Positions 30,893 through 57,087 of a stretch of DNA of 64,000 nt are shown in pieces. A program made the position numbers and the translations under genes. Source of the stretch: Escherichia coli (GTDB lineage Bacteria; Pseudomonadota; Gammaproteobacteria; Enterobacterales; Enterobacteriaceae); assembly GCF_030013205.1 (NCBI RefSeq), contig NZ_CP122648.1. One strand, 5' to 3'. How positions within the stretch are numbered: position 1 is the stretch's first letter; each line of letters opens with the position of its first letter. The notes beneath the pieces are model-generated. The model was not told the DNA's origin. It saw only the letters and a list, made by a program, of their open reading frames with translations, and made no database searches.

Positions 30893-31151
30893 TTGCATAC
30901 CTCAATGGCCCAATTTACACTGGGTCATTACTCATAATACCTGCTAATGCTTTACATCTCCTTCGCGTTTGTATATTTTCTTTATCACTTGCAGAAATGC
31001 GATGCTACGCCTTGCTCCGTAACTCACCCCATTGATTAACTTATTGAAATAGTTGATTATGGTGAGCAAAAGCGTTCCGTTCCAATTAGACATAAGATTA
31101 TTGTAATTTTTTTAAATATTATTTTTCCATGAATAAAATTGGAGTAAGTGC

Positions 31152-32105
31152 GTGGATAGTAATAATCAAATTGAAACCTGTTTAAGCAGAAAGTCGTCAG
31201 AAGGTAAACCACAAATATTTACAACCTTACGAAATATTGATCTTAACCTTCTGACTATTTTTGAAGCTGTATATGTACATAAAGGGATCGTTAATGCAGC
31301 GAAAGTGCTTAATCTGACACCCTCGGCAATCAGTCAGTCTATTCAGAAACTGCGCGTTATATTCCCTGACCCATTGTTTATTCGCAAAGGCCAGGGTGTC
31401 ACTCCTACCGCATTTGCGATGCATCTACATGAGTATATCAGTCAGGGCCTTGAGTCCATTCTTGGCGCGCTGGATATCGAAGGAAGCTATGATAAGCAAC
31501 GAACGATAACTATTGCGACCACCCCCTCGGTCGGAGCCCTGGTCCTTCCTGTCATCTATCGGGCGATTAAATCTCACTATCCGCAGCTTTTACTGCGCAA
31601 CCCCCCCATCAGCGACGCGGAAAACCAACTCAGTCAGTTTCAAACCGATCTCATCATCGATAACATGTTTTGCACCAATCGTACGGTGCAACATCATGTT
31701 CTGTTCACCGACAATATGGTGTTAATTTGCCGCGAGGGAAATCCACTACTCTCTTTAGAAGATGACAGGGAGACTATCGACAACGCTGCGCATATACTCC
31801 TGTTACCGGAAGGGCAAAATTTCAGCGGTCTGCGGCAGAGAGTTCAAGAGATGTTTCCGGACCGGCAAATCAGTTTCACCAGCTACAACATTTTGACAAT
31901 CGCTGCACTGGTTGCCAACAGTGACATGTTAGCGATTATTCCCAGCCGTTTTTATAACCTGTTTAGCCGTTGCTGGCCGCTGGAAAAACTGCCTTTTCCG
32001 TCCTTAAATGATGAGCAAATAGATTTCTCTATCCACTACAACAAATTCAGCCTGCGTGATCCCATCCTGCACGGGGTAATAGATGTTATCCGTAATGCAT
32101 TTTGA
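31152..32105 (+). CDS. ybeF: LysR-family transcriptional regulator YbeF
   Basis: 317 aa, GTG start; N-terminal HTH LNLLTIFEAVYVHKGIVNAAKVLNLTPSAISQSIQKLR; AT-rich. Confidence 0.85.
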   Translation: MDSNNQIETCLSRKSSEGKPQIFTTLRNIDLNLLTIFEAVYVHKGIVNAAKVLNLTPSAISQSIQKLRVIFPDPLFIRKGQGVTPTAFAMHLHEYISQGLESILGALDIEGSYDKQRTITIATTPSVGALVLPVIYRAIKSHYPQLLLRNPPISDAENQLSQFQTDLIIDNMFCTNRTVQHHVLFTDNMVLICREGNPLLSLEDDRETIDNAAHILLLPEGQNFSGLRQRVQEMFPDRQISFTSYNILTIAALVANSDMLAIIPSRFYNLFSRCWPLEKLPFPSLNDEQIDFSIHYNKFSLRDPILHGVIDVIRNAF

Positions 32106-32313
32106 AAAAGTATTGTTACAGCCAGATCACAGCGAAGAACGAAAAAATGGCACAATCCAACAACAATTTTACATTTTCGCGACCGCTTTGGCTGCTTTCA
32201 GGTCCGTTTCAATGATATACTGCCAGTCGTTAATTCAAAAATAGTTGATAATTACAACAATCTATTGAATTGAAACGCTTTCCTTCGTAATTCGCAACTG
32301 GAACACGCACGCT

Positions 32314-33279
32314 ATGAGTAAACCCATTGTGATGGAACGCGGTGTTAAATACCGCGATGCCGATAAGATGGCCCTTATCCCGGTTAAAAACGTGGCAACA
32401 GAGCGCGAAGCCCTGCTGCGCAAGCCGGAATGGATGAAAATCAAGCTTCCAGCGGACTCTACACGTATCCAGGGCATCAAAGCGGCAATGCGCAAAAATG
32501 GCCTGCATTCTGTCTGCGAGGAAGCCTCCTGCCCTAACCTGGCGGAATGCTTCAACCACGGCACAGCAACGTTTATGATCCTCGGCGCTATTTGTACCCG
32601 CCGTTGTCCGTTCTGTGACGTTGCCCACGGTCGCCCGGTAGCTCCGGATGCCAATGAACCAGTGAAACTGGCGCAGACCATTGCCGATATGGCGCTGCGT
32701 TATGTGGTTATCACCTCCGTTGACCGTGATGACCTGCGCGATGGCGGTGCCCAGCACTTTGCGGATTGCATTACTGCCATTCGGGAAAAAAGCCCGCAAA
32801 TCAAAATTGAAACTCTGGTGCCGGATTTCCGCGGTCGTATGGATCGTGCTCTGGATATTCTAACCGCCACACCACCAGATGTGTTCAACCATAACCTGGA
32901 AAACGTACCGCGTATTTACCGTCAGGTACGGCCTGGTGCAGATTACAACTGGTCGCTGAAGCTGCTGGAACGCTTTAAAGAAGCGCATCCGGAAATCCCG
33001 ACCAAGTCTGGTCTGATGGTGGGTCTGGGTGAAACCAATGAAGAAATTATTGAGGTAATGCGCGACCTGCGCCGTCATGGTGTGACGATGTTAACGCTGG
33101 GGCAATATTTGCAGCCAAGCCGCCATCACCTGCCGGTTCAACGTTACGTTAGCCCGGATGAGTTCGACGAAATGAAAGCCGAAGCGCTGGCGATGGGCTT
33201 TACCCATGCTGCATGCGGTCCGTTTGTCCGCTCGTCTTACCACGCCGATTTGCAGGCGAAAGGGATGGAAGTTAAGTAA
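32314..33279 (+). CDS. lipA: lipoyl synthase (radical SAM)
   Basis: 321 aa; cysteine motifs CPNLAEC and CTRRCPFC. Confidence 0.95.
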
Positions 33280-33310
33280 TCCTGTAATAATTACTTACAT
33301 CTGTCTGATA

Positions 33311-33340
33311 AAAAACCCGCTTTTTGAAGCGGTTTTTTTT
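33311..33340. terminator. bidirectional terminator between lipA and tatE
   Basis: A run, CCGCTT-TTTG-AAGCGG stem-loop, then T run. Confidence 0.65.
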
Positions 33341-33380
33341 GTATCGAACAAGATATTGAGGGAGCGTCCTGCTCGCCACG

Positions 33381-49033: not shown

Positions 49034-49117
49034 CGCTCAAATATCAACCAGATTTATCATTTTGCTCTTAAGCGCAGCATTCTAATCTGAACTGGTTATT
49101 CATCTGCGGAACCTCAT

Positions 49118-49207
49118 ATGAGCGAAGCTCTCGGTATCACTGCATTTTATATATTCATAGCCGCGATTATTGTTGCTGCAGTGCTATACCTTGAACAACG
49201 CTGGTAG
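49118..49207 (+). CDS. candidate 29-aa single-pass membrane peptide (MSEALGITAFYIFIAAIIVAAVLYLEQRW)
   Basis: Short ORF below the track cutoff, translated by hand; one hydrophobic helix; weak RBS; no homology evidence. Confidence 0.2.
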   Translation: MSEALGITAFYIFIAAIIVAAVLYLEQRW

Positions 49208-49330
49208 CGCCTGGTTTTATTTATTTTCCAGCTCAATAGCAAATTCAGATCAAATCAGCCTCGCAAATCATAGATTCATAACCAATAATGTGCTGTTATG
49301 TATACATGCAAAAACAAGGAGAGAATGCTT

Positions 49331-49759
49331 ATGTACAAGACAATCATCATGCCAGTGGATGTTTTCGAAATGGAATTGAGCGACAAAGCTGTTCGCCACG
49401 CTGAATTCCTCGCCCAGGATGACGGAGTTATTCATCTACTTCACGTACTACCCGGGTCAGCCAGCCTGAGCCTGCACCGTTTTGCCGCTGATGTGCGTCG
49501 TTTTGAAGAGCATCTGCAACATGAAGCAGAAGAACGTCTGCAAACGATGGTCAGCCACTTCACCATCGATCCTTCCCGCATTAAGCAACATGTCCGTTTT
49601 GGTAGCGTGCGGGATGAAGTCAATGAGTTGGCAGAAGAACTGGGGGCTGATGTTGTAGTTATCGGTTCGCGCAACCCTTCGATTTCGACCCATCTGTTAG
49701 GTTCTAACGCCTCGAGCGTGATCCGCCACGCCAATCTGCCGGTGCTGGTTGTGCGTTAA
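49331..49759 (+). CDS. uspG: universal stress protein UspG (YbdQ)
   Basis: 142 aa from [19 protein letters not shown].. with RBS AAGGAGAG; the track ORF starts 11 codons upstream. Confidence 0.9.
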
Positions 49760-49829
49760 TTGCCAGAATAAATATCCCGCCCTGCCCGGAGCCATCCCGG
49801 CGGGGCTTTTTATTGCCATAATAAATATC

Positions 49830-50535
49830 CTCCGGCATAGCCGGAGGTTTTTCAAATGCGCCTATAAGGCTCTCTTACCAGCCGCGCCCTAACAGGCGCA
49901 CACGATCTGACATTTGCATCCAACTTCGTTACTTACGGCCCGTAAACGGGCTGCCCGGATAGGGAATCGATAACTGCTCTCCCATTTTATCCTCTTCAAG
50001 CTGGTGCTTTATGTAATCCTGTATCTTCGCCGTGTTCTTACCCACTGTATCGACGTAGTACCCTCTGCACCAGAACTCCCTGTTCCTGTATTTGAATTTC
50101 AAATCACCAAACTGCTCGTAAAGCATCAGACTGCTTTTCCCTTTCAGATATCCCATAAACCCGGATACGCTCATTTTGGGCGGGATCTCCACAAGCATAT
50201 GGATATGATCTGCACAGCATTCAGCTTCCAGAATCCGTACGCTTTTCCACTCACACAGCTTTCTCAAAATACTGCCTATTGCTCTACGCTTCTCTCTGTA
50301 GAACACCTGTCTTCGGTATTTTGGCGCAAAAACTATGTGATATTTACAGTTCCATCGGGTGTGCGCTAAGCTCTTTTCGTTCCCCATTGGGACCCCCTTT
50401 TGATTTCTTGTTTGACACTTGCAGTTGCCAGACCGCAAGGTGTTTTAACAAATCAAAAGGGGTTTTAATAACTGGCTCAAAGCTGAAAGCTTTCCGGAAC
50501 CCCCAGCCTAGCTGGGGGTTTTCTGTGCACAAAAA
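49830..50535 (-). mobile_element. IS200-family insertion sequence (boundaries approximate, +/- about 30 bp)
   Basis: Contains a 152-aa Y1 (HUH) transposase gene; upstream of it the characteristic perfect hairpin CCCCCAGC-CTA-GCTGGGGG (50500-50518) and a second stem-loop (CCCCTTTTGATTTG..CAAATCAAAAGGGG) occluding the RBS; size about 0.7 kb as expected for IS200. Confidence 0.8.
49929..50387 (-). CDS. tnpA: IS200 transposase TnpA (Y1/HUH)
   Basis: MGNEKSLAHTRWNCKYHIVFAPKYRR..ADHIHMLVEIPPK.. with HUH motif HIH; near-identical to the IS200 TnpA I recall from Salmonella; the track ORF starts 17 codons upstream. Confidence 0.9.
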   Translation of the reverse strand: MGNEKSLAHTRWNCKYHIVFAPKYRRQVFYREKRRAIGSILRKLCEWKSVRILEAECCADHIHMLVEIPPKMSVSGFMGYLKGKSSLMLYEQFGDLKFKYRNREFWCRGYYVDTVGKNTAKIQDYIKHQLEEDKMGEQLSIPYPGSPFTGRK

Positions 50536-53261: not shown

Positions 53262-54008
53262 ATGTTAAAAAAGATACTTTTACTGGCTCTGCTTCCTGCA
53301 ATCGCCTTCGCAGAGGAACTTCCTGCCCCAGTAAAAGCGATTGAAAAACAGGGCATTACAATCATCAAAACGTTCGATGCTCCCGGAGGAATGAAAGGTT
53401 ATCTCGGAAAGTATCAGGATATGGGCGTCACCATCTACCTGACTCCAGATGGTAAGCACGCTATCTCCGGTTACATGTACAACGAGAAAGGTGAAAACCT
53501 GAGTAACACACTTATCGAAAAAGAAATTTACGCACCAGCCGGACGCGAAATGTGGCAACGGATGGAACAATCCCACTGGCTCCTCGACGGTAAAAAAGAC
53601 GCGCCGGTCATTGTTTACGTCTTCGCCGATCCGTTCTGCCCATATTGTAAACAGTTCTGGCAGCAGGCGCGCCCGTGGGTAGATTCTGGCAAAGTGCAAT
53701 TAAGAACATTGTTGGTTGGGGTTATCAAGCCAGAAAGCCCGGCGACAGCAGCGGCAATTCTTGCCGCCAAAGATCCCGCAAAAACCTGGCAAGAATATGA
53801 AGCCTCTGGTGGCAAGCTTAAGCTAAACGTGCCTGCAAACGTAAGTACAGAGCAAATGAAAGTGTTAAGCGACAACGAGAAACTCATGGACGATCTGGGG
53901 GCAAATGTCACACCAGCTATCTACTACATGAGTAAGGAAAATACACTGCAACAGGCCGTGGGGTTGCCCGATCAGAAAACGCTTAATATCATTATGGGGA
54001 ATAAATAA
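53262..54008 (+). CDS. dsbG: periplasmic thiol:disulfide isomerase DsbG
   Basis: 248 aa from [17 protein letters not shown] (signal peptide); CPYC active site; the track ORF starts 20 codons upstream. Confidence 0.9.
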
Positions 54009-54215
54009 AAGATAATTCATGGATGGTTGAAATATATCCCTGTTTTTCAACCATCCTAAAAAAGCATGAATTGCTCGCTCTGCCCTAAGTGGCTGTGCTA
54101 TTTTAGAAAAACTTAATTCTGAGTTAAGCAAAAAAACATAATACAAATAAATACAACAGCAACATTATTGAACAAATGAATGATTTATAGAAGAGATAAT
54201 ATAACGGAGTATGTT

Positions 54216-55118
54216 ATGGCGAATCTTTATGACCTAAAAAAATTTGATCTGAATTTACTGGTCATATTTGAGTGCATTTATCAACACCTCAGCATTAGCA
54301 AAGCAGCAGAATCATTATATATAACGCCCTCTGCTGTTAGTCAGTCGTTACAACGTTTACGTGCGCAATTTAATGACCCGTTATTCATTCGCTCAGGGAA
54401 AGGTATCGCGCCGACTACGACAGGGTTAAATCTGCATCATCATCTTGAGAAAAATCTCAGAGGCCTTGAACAAACGATCAATATTGTTAATAAGTCTGAG
54501 CTAAAGAAAAATTTTATTATCTACGGTCCTCAGCTTATTTCTTGTACTAATAACAACATGCTAATCCGCTGTCTTAGACAAGATACTTCAATCGATATAG
54601 AATGCCATGACATACTGCTTTCAGCTGAAAATGCCGAAGAACTGTTGGTTCAACGCAAAACTGACCTGGCAATTACACTACAACCAGTAATTAGCCGCTC
54701 TGTCATCTGCATGCCGTTACATACTATTCGCAATTCTCTTATATGTAGCAACAAACATCCTCGTATTACCGATACCAGTAACTATGAACAAATTATCGCC
54801 GAAGAATTCACCTTGTTGATATCTAAATCAGCAGGGATTGACGAAATTCAAATGGACATAGATGAACGTTTTATGAACCGTAAAGTTTCATTTCGCAGTT
54901 CTTCTTTGTTGACGATAATTAATAGTATTTCTGTTACTGACTTATTGGGCATTGTGCCCACCGAACTGTACGATTTACATCGTGATTTTTTGAAGTTACA
55001 AGAGATAAAACTGGAACAACCACTTCCTGCGGTTAAACTTTATATTTCCTATAACAAGGCTTCGTTGAACAACCTTGTCTTCTCACGATTCATAGATCGT
55101 TTAAATGATAGCTTCTGA
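54216..55118 (+). CDS. ybdO: LysR-family transcriptional regulator YbdO
   Basis: 300 aa from MANLYDLKKFDLNLLVIFECIY.. (HTH ..ITPSAVSQSLQRLR..); strongly AT-rich; the track ORF starts 12 codons upstream. Confidence 0.85.
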   Translation: MANLYDLKKFDLNLLVIFECIYQHLSISKAAESLYITPSAVSQSLQRLRAQFNDPLFIRSGKGIAPTTTGLNLHHHLEKNLRGLEQTINIVNKSELKKNFIIYGPQLISCTNNNMLIRCLRQDTSIDIECHDILLSAENAEELLVQRKTDLAITLQPVISRSVICMPLHTIRNSLICSNKHPRITDTSNYEQIIAEEFTLLISKSAGIDEIQMDIDERFMNRKVSFRSSSLLTIINSISVTDLLGIVPTELYDLHRDFLKLQEIKLEQPLPAVKLYISYNKASLNNLVFSRFIDRLNDSF

Positions 55119-55264
55119 TTTAATACCACTGATAAATGTTATATTACGCATCAATTGATTCATTGTGTGAATATAAAATAATGTGCTCTATCTTGCTTCG
55201 TTTACCCTATAATTAGCGGATTCATCTCACGAGTCACCCCGTAACGTTCAGAGAGCGTTTTCAG

Positions 55265-56485
55265 ATGTCTATTTATAAAATCCCGCTTCCACTGAATATT
55301 CTGGAAGCTGCAAAAGAACGTATTACCTGGACACTTAACACCCTACCCCGCGTCTGCGTTTCTTTTTCGGGTGGTAAAGATTCCGGATTAATGCTGCATC
55401 TGACCGCCGAACTTGCCCGACAAATGGGCAAAAAAATTTGTGTTTTATTTATCGACTGGGAAGCTCAGTTCTCTTGCACCATTAACTATGTTCAGTCCCT
55501 GCGCGAGTTGTACACCGATGTCATCGAAGAGTTTTACTGGGTTGCACTCCCGCTTACAACGCAAAATTCCCTATCACAATACCAACCCGAATGGCAGTGC
55601 TGGGAACCTGATGTCGAATGGGTACGTCAGCCTCCGCAAGATGCGATAACCGATCCTGACTTTTTCTCCTTTTACCAGCCAGGCATGACCTTCGAACAAT
55701 TTGTGCGTGAGTTTGCCGAATGGTTTTCACAAAAACGTCCGGCGGCGATGATGATCGGCATCCGTGCGGATGAGTCCTACAACCGTTTTGTCGCCATCGC
55801 CAGTTTAAATAAACAACGTTTTGCCGATGATAAGCCCTGGACCACTGCCGCACCAGGCGGTCATAGCTGGTACATTTACCCCATCTACGACTGGAAAGTC
55901 GCTGATATCTGGACCTGGTATGCAAATCATCAAAGTCTCTGCAACCCACTGTATAACCTAATGTATCAGGCAGGCGTTCCTCTGCGTCATATGCGAATTT
56001 GCGAACCTTTTGGCCCGGAGCAACGACAAGGATTATGGCTCTATCACGTTATCGAACCGGATCGCTGGGCTGCTATGTGCGCACGAGTCAGCGGGGTAAA
56101 AAGTGGCGGCATTTACGCCGGACATGACAACCATTTTTATGGTCATCGGAAAATCCTCAAGCCCGAACATTTAGACTGGCAGGAGTATGCATTATTGCTA
56201 CTCAACAGCATGCCGGAGAAAACAGCTGAGCATTATCGCAATAAAATCGCCATTTATTTGCACTGGTATCAGAAAAAAGGCATCGAGGTTCCACAAACCC
56301 AGCAAGGGGACATTGGCGCGAAAGATATCCCCTCCTGGCGGCGAATATGCAAAGTTTTACTCAATAACGATTACTGGTGTCGGGCATTATCATTTAGCCC
56401 GACCAAAGCGAAGAACTATCAGCGTTATAACGAACGAATAAAAGGAAAACGTCAGGAATGGGGGATACTATGCAACAACGATTAA
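55265..56485 (+). CDS. ybdN: PAPS-reductase-like PP-loop ATP-pyrophosphatase family protein YbdN (IbrA homologue)
   Basis: 406 aa; PP-loop motif VSFSGGKDSGLM near the N terminus. Confidence 0.85.
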   Translation: MSIYKIPLPLNILEAAKERITWTLNTLPRVCVSFSGGKDSGLMLHLTAELARQMGKKICVLFIDWEAQFSCTINYVQSLRELYTDVIEEFYWVALPLTTQNSLSQYQPEWQCWEPDVEWVRQPPQDAITDPDFFSFYQPGMTFEQFVREFAEWFSQKRPAAMMIGIRADESYNRFVAIASLNKQRFADDKPWTTAAPGGHSWYIYPIYDWKVADIWTWYANHQSLCNPLYNLMYQAGVPLRHMRICEPFGPEQRQGLWLYHVIEPDRWAAMCARVSGVKSGGIYAGHDNHFYGHRKILKPEHLDWQEYALLLLNSMPEKTAEHYRNKIAIYLHWYQKKGIEVPQTQQGDIGAKDIPSWRRICKVLLNNDYWCRALSFSPTKAKNYQRYNERIKGKRQEWGILCNND

Positions 56486-57087
56486 CGCAGGATTTAACCC
56501 AATTTCTCGCCAGCTTGCCGGAAGACGATCGCATCAAAGCGATTAATGAAATCCGCATGGCGATCCATAAGGTCAGTCCTTTTCGTGAAGAGCCGGTGCA
56601 TTGTGTTTTGTGGGTGAAAAATAGCCAGCTCGTGCCGAATGATTACAATCCCAATAATGTGGCACCACCAGAGAAGAAACTGCTGCAAAAATCCATTGAA
56701 ATAGATGGCTTTACGCAACCCATTGTGGTCACGCATACAGATAAAAATGCTCTGGAAATTGTTGATGGTTTTCACCGCCATGAAATAGGTAAAGGCTTAT
56801 CATCGTTAAAATTACGCTTAAAAGGTTATTTGCCAGTAACCTGTCTGGAAGGTACACGTAATCAACGCATCGCCGCGACTATTCGTCATAACCGCGCCCG
56901 TGGTCGCCATCAAATCACTGCCATGTCCGAAATTGTTCGTGAACTCAGCCAGTTGGGATGGGACGATCATAAAATCGGCAAAGAGCTGGGAATGGACAGC
57001 GACGAGGTGCTGCGCCTGAAACAAATTAACGGCCTGCAAGAACTGTTTGCCGACCGTCAATTTTCCCGCGCATGGACGGTTAAATAA
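56458..57087 (+). CDS. ybdM: ParB/sulfiredoxin-like domain protein YbdM (IbrB homologue)
   Basis: 209 aa; DGFHRHE motif of the ParB/Srx (DGQHR-like) fold; overlaps ybdN by 28 nt. Confidence 0.8.
   Translation: MGDTMQQRLTQDLTQFLASLPEDDRIKAINEIRMAIHKVSPFREEPVHCVLWVKNSQLVPNDYNPNNVAPPEKKLLQKSIEIDGFTQPIVVTHTDKNALEIVDGFHRHEIGKGLSSLKLRLKGYLPVTCLEGTRNQRIAATIRHNRARGRHQITAMSEIVRELSQLGWDDHKIGKELGMDSDEVLRLKQINGLQELFADRQFSRAWTVK

What the first reader, a model, noticed from the sequence alone, without database searches (positions are those of the whole stretch)
31152..32105. ybeF and ybdO are AT-rich paralogous LysR regulators about 22 kb apart
Seen in sequence: the N-terminal regions align closely (ybeF IDLNLLTIFEAVYVHKGIVNAAKVLNLTPSAISQSIQKLRVIFPDPLFIRKGQGVTPT versus ybdO FDLNLLVIFECIYQHLSISKAAESLYITPSAVSQSLQRLRAQFNDPLFIRSGKGIAPT), and both genes are conspicuously AT-rich compared with their neighbours. 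This suggests an old duplication or two acquisitions of the same regulator family, both likely H-NS targets. ybdO (54216-55118) precedes the ybdNM pair; ybeF sits between lipB and lipA with no obvious target operon.
Basis: seen in the sequence. Interest (0 to 1): 0.3.

Follow-up and report, generated by a model that had tools for sequence, protein, structure and literature searches.

The report
Known paralogous LysR regulators YbeF and CitR
ybeF and ybdO (now named citR) are each other's closest relatives among E. coli's LysR-type regulators and both lie in H-NS-bound DNA, but this is already published, so the finding is correct and ordinary.

Summary
The window is E. coli chromosome. ybeF (31152-32105) and ybdO/citR (54216-55118) are real LysR-type regulator genes 22.1 kb apart. 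The proteins align over their full length (30% identity, E 1e-41). AT-richness is strong for ybdO (37% GC, lowest of 58 ORFs) but mild for ybeF (45%, mostly its promoter and 5' end).

All of this is published. [quoted passage not shown] Higashi 2016 and Fan 2022 show H-NS represses ybdO. Shimada 2014 marks an H-NS site in the lipB-ybeF spacer.

What I add:
- Both belong to a fast-evolving subfamily whose named members are all Enterobacterales (79% bootstrap, excludes LeuO and YidZ), but they are not demonstrably sister groups.
- Both positions are syntenic across genera, which favours old vertical inheritance over two recent acquisitions.
- No ybdNM-like partner accompanies ybeF elsewhere.
- A ybeF segment is missing from 1054 of 5426 complete E. 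coli genomes, including ST131; the two genomes inspected carry annotated ybeF pseudogenes.
- citR exists in E. coli as two allele classes about 20% apart in nucleotides, with saturated synonymous sites and an invariant DNA-binding domain.

The parts
31152..32105 (+). ybeF coding sequence (317 aa, GTG start), a LysR-type regulator of the YbeF family
   Evidence: ORF. Pfam HTH_1 at residues 31-89 and LysR_substrate at 116-316. NCBIfam NF008554 611.9 bits, cut-off 277. RefSeq annotates the identical sequence as ybeF.
31242..31418 (+). Region of ybeF that encodes the winged helix-turn-helix (residues 31-89)
Evidence: Pfam PF00126, E 1.5e-14.
31497..32099 (+). Region of ybeF that encodes the effector-binding domain (residues 116-316)
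   Evidence: Pfam PF03466, E 2.8e-16. This domain carries the similarity that is specific to the YbeF-CitR pair.
30893..31151 (.). AT-rich lipB-ybeF spacer, reported to hold an H-NS binding site
   Evidence: GC 38.6% over 31001-31500. The spacer is marked HNS in the Shimada 2014 genomic SELEX table. lipB is listed as H-NS-bound in Higashi 2016 Table S2. The spacer is not conserved between genera.
30952..30978 (+). ybeF promoter TTTACA-15-TATATT
   Evidence: The hexamers given by Shimada 2014 are present in the window sequence. The consensus scan finds an overlapping site.
31676..32067 (.). ybeF segment deleted in many E. coli genomes (ST131, SE15 and others)
   Evidence: The query 31690-32055 finds no match in 1054 of 5426 complete genomes. 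Deletion end-points were mapped in OV24 and DS566-1, where RefSeq marks ybeF as a frameshifted, incomplete pseudogene. The same junction is present in EC958, JJ1886 and SE15.
31327..31521 (.). Second, nested ybeF deletion found in a subset of the genomes above
   Evidence: The query 31335-31515 finds no match in 393 of 5426 genomes. End-points mapped in DS566-1.
32190..32313 (+). Conserved non-coding block directly upstream of lipA; candidate lipA control region. It is not shown to be a YbeF target.
   Evidence: Highly conserved between E. coli, Klebsiella and Mangrovibacter and partly in Rahnella. Contains TGATATACT at 32213-32221, which resembles an extended -10 element. Shimada's lipA promoter ATGGCA-17-TACATT lies at 32148-32176. 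No Rfam match and no significant RNA fold.
54216..55118 (+). ybdO/citR coding sequence (300 aa), a LysR-type repressor
   Evidence: ORF. NCBIfam NF047710 CitR 452.9 bits, cut-off 400. Pfam HTH_1 and LysR_substrate. RefSeq annotates the identical sequence as citR. The K-12 homologue is b0603 citR.
54249..54425 (+). Region of citR that encodes the winged helix-turn-helix
   Evidence: Pfam PF00126 at residues 24-82 of the 312-aa ORF. The first 110 residues are identical between the window and K-12 alleles, although about 61% of synonymous sites in the first 100 codons differ.
53966..54379 (+). citR promoter region with the published H-NS-dependent elements: URE at -250 to -176, transcription start at about -107 (near 54109), DRE at +27 to +164
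   Evidence: Positions are transferred from K-12 numbering in Higashi 2016. The spacer length differs by 1 bp, so positions are approximate. GC 34.6% over 54001-54500.
54869..54900 (.). Position that corresponds to the strongest CitR ChIP-exo peak in K-12 (636934-636965). It lies inside the citR ORF, 365-396 bp upstream of the ybdN start codon.
   Evidence: Gao 2021 supplementary dataset, signal/noise 97. Mapped without gaps onto the window. 7 of 32 bases differ from K-12, and I found no T-N11-A dyad with 5 or more complementary pairs. A promoter-like site lies at 54892-54919.
54000..55400 (.). Island of very high allelic divergence within E. coli, centred on citR
   Evidence: Window versus K-12 is 68-87% identical here against about 98% in the background. 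The genome-wide distribution is bimodal: 1771 genomes at >=95%, 5 at 90-95% and 3568 at 60-90%. The pattern is discordant with the flanks in a three-way alignment.
55265..57087 (+). ybdN (PAPS-reductase-like/DUF3440) and ybdM (ParB-N/IbrB-like), the co-directional downstream genes reported to be repressed by CitR
   Evidence: ORFs, Pfam, K-12 names. In a citR deletion, ybdN rises by log2 5.5 and ybdM by log2 2.5.

Best explanation
ybeF and ybdO/citR are two long-diverged members of one fast-evolving, LeuO-related branch of the LysR family whose named members are all Enterobacterales. They are the only two members seen in E. coli, so within that genome each is the other's closest paralogue. They come from old duplication(s) inside a multi-copy subfamily, not from a recent or local duplication. 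Each has since been inherited vertically at a fixed position: ybeF between lipB and lipA, and citR between dsbG and ybdL.

Both proteins have the standard LysR build: an N-terminal winged helix-turn-helix, a linker, and a C-terminal effector-binding domain of the periplasmic-binding-protein type.

Shown in the literature: citR sits in AT-rich DNA. Its promoter is silenced by H-NS through elements upstream and downstream of the start site, and acid pH relieves that silencing. CitR binds its own locus and represses ybdNM. It also binds several other H-NS-controlled loci, including the K1 capsule promoter.

Inferred: ybeF has its own sigma-70 promoter in an H-NS-bound spacer and is probably also weakly expressed. 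Its targets are unknown. It is dispensable in E. coli, because roughly a fifth of complete genomes lack part of it. I infer that the subfamily works as LeuO does, as H-NS-silenced regulators that act on other H-NS-bound AT-rich promoters.
For: - Full-length alignment: 30% identity, E 1e-41.
- Reciprocal second-best NCBIfam models, well above LeuO, BsrA and YidZ.
- The pair-specific similarity lies in the effector domain.
- NJ tree with 200 bootstraps: YbeF clade 97%, CitR clade 98%, joint 58-member clade 79% that excludes LeuO and YidZ.
- Every named member of that clade is from Enterobacterales and none is a further E. coli protein.
- lipB-ybeF-lipA order is kept in Klebsiella, Mangrovibacter and Rahnella and is reported for Salmonella and Enterobacter.
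- dsbG-citR-(ybdNM)-ybdL order is kept in Salmonella and Franconibacter.
- The CitR protein tree follows the species tree.
- Both are fast-evolving. CitR is 54.5% identical between E. coli and Salmonella, where the neighbouring genes are 78-98%. YbeF is 53.8% identical between E. coli and Klebsiella, where lipB is 81% and lipA 96%.
- Published statement of paralogy and of ybdNM repression.
- Published H-NS control of ybdO and an H-NS site at the ybeF spacer.
- CitR ChIP-exo sites at ybgD, ygiL and yjjP. The ybgD and yjjP spacers are marked as H-NS sites.
- ybeF deletions in 1054 of 5426 genomes.
Against: - YbeF and CitR are not resolved as sister groups. Branching inside the 58-member clade has 30% support or less. 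Hafnia, Edwardsiella and Rahnella relatives are closer to CitR than YbeF is. The number and order of duplications is therefore unknown.
- The tree is neighbour-joining on proteins that are about 30% identical, which is a weak method at this depth.
- ybeF is not AT-rich in Klebsiella (57.6% against 56.3% for the locus), so H-NS targeting of ybeF may be specific to some lineages.
- The YbeF ChIP-exo peaks are near noise (signal/noise 1.1-4.3), so nothing is known about what it binds.
- The LeuO-like antagonist idea rests on co-location of sites. There is no experiment behind it.
- The de-repression of ybdNM in the citR deletion could partly be read-through from the deletion cassette. This is my own caveat and was not tested.
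Confidence: 0.82

Rival explanations
1. The two genes are independent horizontal acquisitions of the same regulator family. On this view they are xenogeneic AT-rich DNA captured and silenced by H-NS, rather than descendants of a duplication in an enterobacterial ancestor.
For: - citR is AT-rich in every lineage examined: 37% in E. coli, 39.1% against 51.3% for the locus in Salmonella, and 49.8% against 58.0% in Franconibacter.
- Higashi 2016 treats ybdO as a horizontally transferred gene.
- CitR has a narrow distribution (Escherichia, Citrobacter, Salmonella, Franconibacter).
- ybeF is absent from the Yersinia pestis ybeD-lipB-lipA cluster.
- The subfamily is patchy and multi-copy in other genera.
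Against: - Both genes keep exactly the same neighbours across genera, and for ybeF across two families.
- The CitR tree mirrors the species tree.
- The YbeF identity ladder also follows phylogeny: other Escherichia about 82%, Citrobacter and Salmonella 67-72%, Enterobacter and Kosakonia 64-68%, Klebsiella 53%, Rahnella 43%.
- No mobile-element genes flank either gene.
- Any acquisition would have to predate the divergence of these genera. At that age it cannot be told apart from ancient duplication with vertical descent.
Confidence: 0.1
2. The resemblance is only generic LysR-family similarity, concentrated in the helix-turn-helix, and the two proteins are no closer to each other than to other E. 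coli LysR regulators.
For: Similarity in the DNA-binding domain is almost as high to LeuO and YidZ (39-44%) as between the pair (44%).
Against: - Reciprocal NCBIfam scores are 168-181 bits, against 111 bits or less for any other E. coli family model.
- Effector-domain alignment scores are about twice those to LeuO or YidZ.
- The joint clade that excludes LeuO and YidZ has 79% bootstrap support.
- An independent published statement of paralogy exists.
Confidence: 0.03
3. The two paralogues form a functional pair dedicated to citrate metabolism. They flank the citrate lyase (cit) locus and jointly regulate it, as Rodionova 2022 suggested.
For: - The cit-dpi cluster (about 38.0-47.4 kb) lies between the two genes in the window.
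- citCDEF is reported up in a citR deletion, with a growth effect on citrate at pH 6.5. The paper reports clustering with cit in E. coli, Salmonella and Citrobacter.
Against: - No CitR or YbeF ChIP-exo peak lies at the cit genes.
- The linkage dissolves outside the closest relatives. In Klebsiella, dcuC is followed directly by rna with no cit genes. In Rahnella, ybeF has unrelated downstream genes. In Franconibacter, citR has neither cit genes nor ybdNM beside it.
- ybeF is always tied to lipB and lipA, not to cit.
- ybeF is partly deleted in about 19% of E. coli genomes.
Confidence: 0.15

Closest known systems
CitR (YbdO, b0603) and YbeF (b0629) of E. coli K-12, as described by Rodionova et al. 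2022 (Sci Rep 12:7274) and Gao et al. 2021 (NAR 49:9696)
   Same: These are the same genes. The window YbeF is 98.1% identical to K-12 YbeF. The paper already states the 30% paralogy, H-NS control of citR and repression of ybdNM.
   Different: The window carries the other citR allele class: 88.7% amino-acid and 79.8% nucleotide identity to K-12. The K-12 ChIP-exo site differs at 7 of 32 bases in this allele.
LeuO, the H-NS-antagonising LysR regulator of Enterobacteriaceae
   Same: LeuO is the next-closest E. coli family for both proteins (111 and 99 bits). It shares the 'DLNLL...PLF.R...G..PT' N-terminal pattern. From my own knowledge, leuO is itself H-NS-silenced and acts at H-NS-bound promoters. 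CitR's distal ChIP-exo sites are also at H-NS-marked or cryptic fimbrial loci.
   Different: LeuO lies outside the 79%-supported YbeF/CitR clade. Its effector domain is only 16-18% identical. Both proteins score far below the LeuO model cut-off of 262 bits. No H-NS antagonism has been shown for YbeF or CitR.
DntR/NahR-type LysR regulators with solved structures (1UTB, 1UTH, 2UYE, 5AE4) and PDB entry 2ESN, described there as a 'probable transcriptional regulator'
   Same: These are the best solved-structure relatives of YbeF (E about 4e-19, covering residues 24-290). The two-domain LysR architecture is the same.
   Different: The relationship is distant. DntR senses aromatic ligands. No ligand is known or predictable for YbeF or CitR, and no structure of either has been solved.
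Classical LysR arrangement, with the regulator divergent from its target operon and a T-N11-A operator in the shared spacer
   Same: The protein family is the same. Autoregulation is reported for CitR.
   Different: Both genes here are co-directional with their downstream neighbours (ybeF to lipA, citR to ybdNM). The strongest CitR peak lies inside its own coding region, and I found no clear T-N11-A dyad there.

Membership tests
LysR-type transcriptional regulators (LTTR) | N-terminal winged helix-turn-helix of the LysR type (Pfam PF00126) | tested here: met
   YbeF residues 31-89, E 1.5e-14. CitR residues 24-82 of the 312-aa ORF, E 8.5e-19. Both are above the gathering score.
LysR-type transcriptional regulators (LTTR) | C-terminal LysR substrate-binding domain (PF03466) in a protein of about 300 aa | tested here: met
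   YbeF residues 116-316, 60 bits. CitR residues 149-310, 40.9 bits. The cut-off is 28 bits. Lengths are 317 and 300 aa.
LysR-type transcriptional regulators (LTTR) | Binds a T-N11-A dyad, usually in a spacer shared with a divergently transcribed target | tested here: inconclusive
   No T-N11-A dyad with 5 or more complementary pairs lies at or near the position of the K-12 ChIP-exo peak. Both genes are co-directional with their neighbours. DNA binding itself cannot be tested with these tools.
NCBIfam NF008554, YbeF family transcriptional regulator (equivalog) | Whole-protein score at or above the curated cut-off of 277 bits | tested here: met
   The window's YbeF scores 611.9 bits over model positions 1-317 of 317. 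CitR scores only 167.8 bits and so is not a member.
NCBIfam NF047710, DNA-binding transcriptional repressor CitR (equivalog) | Whole-protein score at or above the curated cut-off of 400 bits | tested here: met
   The window's YbdO scores 452.9 bits. YbeF scores only 180.7 bits and so is not a member.
LeuO (NCBIfam NF007063) | Whole-protein score at or above the cut-off of 262 bits | tested here: not met
   YbeF scores 111.4 bits and CitR 99.3 bits. E. coli LeuO falls outside the joint clade.
H-NS-silenced xenogeneic (horizontally acquired) genes | Markedly lower G+C than the host genome | tested here: met
   Met for citR: 37.0% against a 51.8% mean in E. coli, and also low in Salmonella and Franconibacter. 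Only weakly met for ybeF: 45.2% in E. coli, and not lower than the locus in Klebsiella.
H-NS-silenced xenogeneic (horizontally acquired) genes | H-NS occupancy and de-repression in an hns mutant | not testable with these tools
   From the literature only. ybdO is bound and repressed (Higashi 2016, Fan 2022). The lipB-ybeF spacer holds an H-NS SELEX site, and lipB is listed as H-NS-bound. I found no hns-mutant expression data for ybeF.
H-NS-silenced xenogeneic (horizontally acquired) genes | Recent acquisition: patchy presence, no conserved synteny, links to mobile elements | tested here: not met
   Synteny is conserved across genera for both genes. The gene tree follows the species tree. No mobile-element genes are adjacent.

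The most novel reading that the evidence does not exclude
The paralogy itself is known. The evidence does not exclude the following reading.

(a) citR is held in E. coli as two old allele classes. They differ at about 71% of synonymous sites but have an identical DNA-binding domain, with dN/dS about 0.03. They are shared across lineages in conflict with the flanking DNA. This would be a balanced or recombination-shuffled polymorphism, centred on the effector domain and the citR-ybdN control region.

(b) The YbeF/CitR subfamily works like LeuO, as H-NS-silenced regulators that act on other H-NS-bound loci such as cryptic fimbriae and capsule genes.

(c) ybeF is being lost by stepwise deletion in ST131 and related strains.
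Probability: 0.3. Interest if true: 0.45.

Novelty: already known. Interest (0 to 1): 0.2.

Why it matters
The finding as stated adds nothing to the literature. The paralogy, the H-NS control of ybdO and the link to ybdNM are all published.

Its modest value is as a pointer. YbeF is still a regulator of unknown function, sitting between the two lipoate-synthesis genes in Enterobacteriaceae and in Rahnella. The population data gathered here show that E. coli can do without it. They also show that its paralogue citR, by contrast, is strongly conserved at the protein level while carrying an unusually deep two-allele polymorphism. If that polymorphism is maintained by selection, citR-ybdNM would be a useful case for studying how H-NS-bound regulators diversify within a species.

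Tried and rejected
1. Recent or segmental duplication is rejected. There is no nucleotide similarity between the two 4-kb regions, and the flanking genes are unrelated.

2. A ybdNM-like partner next to ybeF homologues was not found in Klebsiella, Mangrovibacter or Rahnella. Franconibacter citR also lacks ybdNM, so the ybdNM link is not universal even for citR.

3. A strict sister-group relationship could not be shown. Internal nodes have 30% bootstrap support or less.

4. A uniformly fast local clock fails as the explanation for the citR dimorphism. Window and OV24 differ by 2-4% both in citR and in the flanks, while both differ from K-12 by 11-25% in citR only. Import from outside the genus is also unlikely, because both alleles group together below E. 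albertii.

5. An RNA element in the conserved lipA leader was not supported. There is no Rfam hit in the leader (the three weak sub-threshold matches lie at 33207-33342, near the end of lipA), and the fold z-score is -0.44.

6. A T-N11-A operator at the CitR ChIP-exo position was not found.

7. I tried to read Feng and Cronan 2014 on lipoate regulation and ybeF, but the paper is not held. A search for IbrA/IbrB literature returned only unrelated retinal-barrier papers.

NCBIfam ranking and the representative-library search served as proxies.
Full report
**What the window is.** The 64-kb window is E. coli chromosome. It is 100% identical over the ybeF region to porcine ETEC/O139 strains, and the region matches 5424 of 5426 complete E. 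coli genomes. It runs opposite to K-12 numbering. The gene order is dacA-ybeD-lipB-ybeF-lipA-tatE ... dcuC-dpiAB-citCDEFXGT-rna-rnk ... ahpCF-dsbG-ybdO-ybdN-ybdM-ybdL. In current K-12 annotation ybdO is citR, 'DNA-binding transcriptional repressor CitR', and ybeF is 'putative DNA-binding transcriptional regulator YbeF'.

**Checking the observation.**
- ybeF is a GTG-started 317-aa ORF at 31152-32105. It matches the NCBIfam YbeF model end to end (611.9 bits).
- ybdO is best read from 54216 (300 aa; CitR model 452.9 bits).
- Both proteins have the Pfam LysR helix-turn-helix and LysR substrate-binding domains.
- Over the full length, BLASTP gives 30% identity across 302 residues, E 1e-41.
- There is no DNA-level similarity between the loci.
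- ybdO is very AT-rich: 37.0% GC and GC3 35.5%, the lowest of 58 ORFs (mean 51.8%, sd 3.9).
- ybeF is only mildly AT-rich: 45.2% GC, close to lipB at 47.7% and pagP at 45.3%. Its really AT-rich part is the upstream spacer and 5' end (38.6% over 31001-31500).

**Is the similarity more than generic?** Yes. Against 18,950 NCBIfam models, each protein's second-best family is the other's:
- YbeF on the CitR model scores 180.7 bits, against 118 for BsrA, 111 for LeuO and 69 for YidZ.
- CitR on the YbeF model scores 167.8 bits, against 99 for LeuO and 90 for BsrA.

Splitting the proteins by domain is informative. The effector domain is what sets the pair apart: 27% identity and score 136, against 16-23% and scores 57-77 for the full-length alignments to LeuO and YidZ (CitR-YidZ aligned over only 36 residues, score 9).

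**Wider family.** I ran a profile search of 1.84 billion cluster representatives and built a neighbour-joining tree of 111 full-length relatives with 200 bootstraps.
- The YbeF clade (E. coli, Klebsiella, Mangrovibacter, Rahnella) has 97% support.
- The CitR clade (E. coli, Salmonella, Franconibacter) has 98% support.
- The smallest clade that contains both has 58 members and 79% support. It excludes E. coli LeuO and YidZ.
- Inside that clade the branching is unresolved (30% or less).
- Several third-party members are closer to CitR than YbeF is.
- Every named member comes from Enterobacterales: Hafnia, Edwardsiella, Rahnella, Scandinavium, Pseudescherichia, Enterobacillus, Ewingella, Dryocola, Budvicia and Buttiauxella. 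Several genera hold more than one copy. No further E. coli member appeared.

The two genes are thus E. coli's two representatives of a multi-copy subfamily seen so far only in Enterobacterales. They are paralogues, but not demonstrably a simple sister pair.

**Duplication or two acquisitions?** Synteny argues for long vertical descent.
- lipB-ybeF-lipA is conserved in Klebsiella (53.8% protein identity), Mangrovibacter (47.6%) and Rahnella (42.7%, family Yersiniaceae). The same order is reported for Salmonella and Enterobacter, while Yersinia pestis lacks ybeF.
- dsbG-citR-ybdN-ybdM-ybdL is conserved in Salmonella. Franconibacter has dsbG-citR-ybdL without ybdNM.
- The CitR protein tree follows the species tree: E. 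coli alleles, then E. albertii at 75-79%, Citrobacter at 55-61%, Salmonella at 54% and Franconibacter at 45%.
- The YbeF identity ladder does the same and is taxonomically broader.
- Other subfamily members sit in unrelated contexts: beside a chaperone-usher fimbrial operon, between rmf and fabA, and next to narGHJI.
- No ybdNM-like partner accompanies ybeF anywhere.

Both regulators evolve far faster than their neighbours. CitR is 54.5% identical between E. coli and Salmonella, where neighbouring genes are 78-98%. YbeF is 53.8% identical between E. coli and Klebsiella, where lipB is 81% and lipA 96%. Low G+C is conserved for citR in Salmonella and Franconibacter. It is not conserved for ybeF in Klebsiella.

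**What is already published.**
- Rodionova et al. [quoted passage not shown] They name YbdO CitR and report a ChIP-exo peak at its own locus. In a citR deletion ybdN rises by log2 5.5 and ybdM by log2 2.5. They also report effects of both mutants on lrhA and the flagellar regulon.
- Higashi et al. 2016 show that H-NS binds and represses ybdO through upstream and downstream elements. They picked ybdO because it is among the most variable H-NS-bound genes. Their table also lists lipB as H-NS-bound.
- Fan et al. 2022 show that H-NS binds the ybdO promoter, that acid pH relieves the repression, and that YbdO activates the K1 capsule promoter.
- Shimada et al. 2014 list a ybeF promoter, TTTACA-15-TATATT, in a spacer marked as holding an H-NS SELEX site, and a separate lipA promoter. 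I found both promoters in the window, at 30952-30978 and 32148-32176.
- The Gao et al. 2021 dataset gives four CitR sites: one inside the citR ORF, plus ybgD, ygiL and yjjP. It gives only near-noise sites for YbeF.

One discrepancy stands out. The strongest CitR peak (K-12 636934-636965, window 54869-54900) lies inside the coding region, 365-396 bp upstream of ybdN. It is not upstream of citR as the text of the later paper says. I found no clear T-N11-A dyad there.

**How it most likely works.**

*Shown in the literature:* citR is an H-NS-silenced, acid-inducible LysR regulator. It binds its own locus, represses the co-directional ybdNM genes, and can activate the kpsM capsule promoter.

*Inferred:* two of CitR's three distal ChIP-exo sites (ybgD and yjjP) lie in spacers marked as H-NS sites. 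ygiL and ybgD are annotated as putative fimbrial genes. A close homologue sits next to a fimbrial operon. LeuO is the nearest characterised E. coli relative. From these I infer a LeuO-like role at H-NS-bound promoters.

*YbeF:* it has the same protein architecture and its own promoter in an H-NS-bound spacer, but no credible targets. Its invariable position upstream of lipA, and a strongly conserved block of about 125 bp before lipA, make lipA a candidate target. However, lipA has its own promoter, and strains with deleted ybeF keep lipA.

The proposed link of both genes to citrate lyase rests on synteny that disappears in Klebsiella, Rahnella and Franconibacter.

**Additional observations within E. 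coli.**

*ybeF.* The 3' segment 31690-32055 is missing from 1054 of 5426 complete genomes, and the segment 31335-31515 from 393. In OV24 and DS566-1 the deletions map to 31676-32067 and additionally 31327-31521, and RefSeq marks ybeF there as a frameshifted, incomplete pseudogene. The first deletion is present in ST131 strains (EC958, JJ1886) and in SE15. Between the window and K-12, ybeF has an ordinary dS (0.043) but dN/dS of 0.19, against about 0 for lipA and lipB.

*citR.* The gene is present in 5344 of 5426 genomes but is dimorphic. 1771 genomes are at least 95% identical to the window allele, 5 fall at 90-95%, and 3568 fall at 60-90%. K-12 and O157:H7 are at about 80%. The divergence is a sharply bounded island at about 54000-55400, with 68-87% identity against about 98% in the background.

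Between the two alleles pS is 0.71 (saturated), pN is 0.062 and dN/dS is about 0.03. The first 110 residues are identical. In a three-way alignment the window allele groups with OV24 (which carries the ST131-type ybeF deletion) at 96-98%, although in several flank segments the window is closer to K-12. Both alleles sit together below E. albertii in the protein tree. This looks like an old intra-species polymorphism under purifying selection, shuffled by recombination. It is neither a uniformly fast clock nor an import from another genus. Higashi et al. described the high variability. I did not find the two-class structure or its discordance with the flanks stated in the papers I read.

**Verdict.** Interest is low. 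The within-species patterns at both genes are the only parts that might repay further work.

Noticed in passing
window 54000-55400 (citR and both flanking spacers): citR is dimorphic in E. coli. 1771 genomes are at least 95% identical to the window allele, 3568 are at 60-90% (K-12 and O157 at about 80%), and only 5 lie in between. Synonymous sites are saturated (pS 0.71), dN/dS is about 0.03, and the first 110 residues are identical. Allele sharing is discordant with the flanking DNA.
   Followed up: partly
window 31676-32067 and 31327-31521 (inside ybeF): Segments of ybeF are missing from 1054 and 393 of 5426 complete E. coli genomes. In the two genomes inspected these are nested deletions and RefSeq annotates ybeF as a pseudogene. 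The larger deletion is present in ST131 (EC958, JJ1886) and in SE15.
   Followed up: partly
window 54869-54900: The strongest published CitR ChIP-exo peak maps inside the citR coding region, 365-396 bp upstream of ybdN, although the later paper describes it as upstream of citR. A promoter-like site lies next to it at 54892-54919. The sequence differs at 7 of 32 bases between the two allele classes.
   Followed up: partly
window 32190-32313 (upstream of lipA): The last 125 bp or so before the lipA start codon are almost invariant between E. coli, Klebsiella and Mangrovibacter and partly conserved in Rahnella. The block includes TGATATACT, which resembles an extended -10 element, at 32213-32221. 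The lipB-ybeF spacer is not conserved. There is no Rfam match here and no significant RNA fold.
   Followed up: partly
window 49037-50513: Compared with K-12, ybdR is missing between rnk and uspG. About 690 bp not found in K-12 lie between uspG and ahpF and carry an IS200-like (Y1_Tnp) transposase ORF at 49929-50438 on the minus strand.
   Followed up: partly
window 55265-57087 (ybdN, ybdM); L009: ybdN is a PAPS-reductase-like/DUF3440 protein, and ybdM is a ParB-N protein that RefSeq labels 'IbrB-like' in strain OV24. The pair is absent next to citR in Franconibacter. ybdM is itself unusually divergent between the window and K-12 (dS 0.45).
   Followed up: no
L018 (E. coli strain 52F4), corresponding to window 31075 onward: One genome lacks all of ybeF and most of lipA (lipA annotated as a truncated pseudogene). 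This would predict lipoate auxotrophy, or it may be an assembly artefact.
   Followed up: no
ybeF-lipA spacer and citR in other E. coli genomes (hits H14, H94): There is an IS1 insertion between ybeF and lipA in strain MSB1_4I, and an IS1 insertion in citR in strain MB7671.
   Followed up: no
window 31152-32105 (YbeF protein): A 2024 screen reports YbeF as one of 32 chromosomal E. coli proteins translocated through the F-plasmid type IV secretion system, with internal and C-terminal signals. This is unexplained and unrelated to the paralogy.
   Followed up: no
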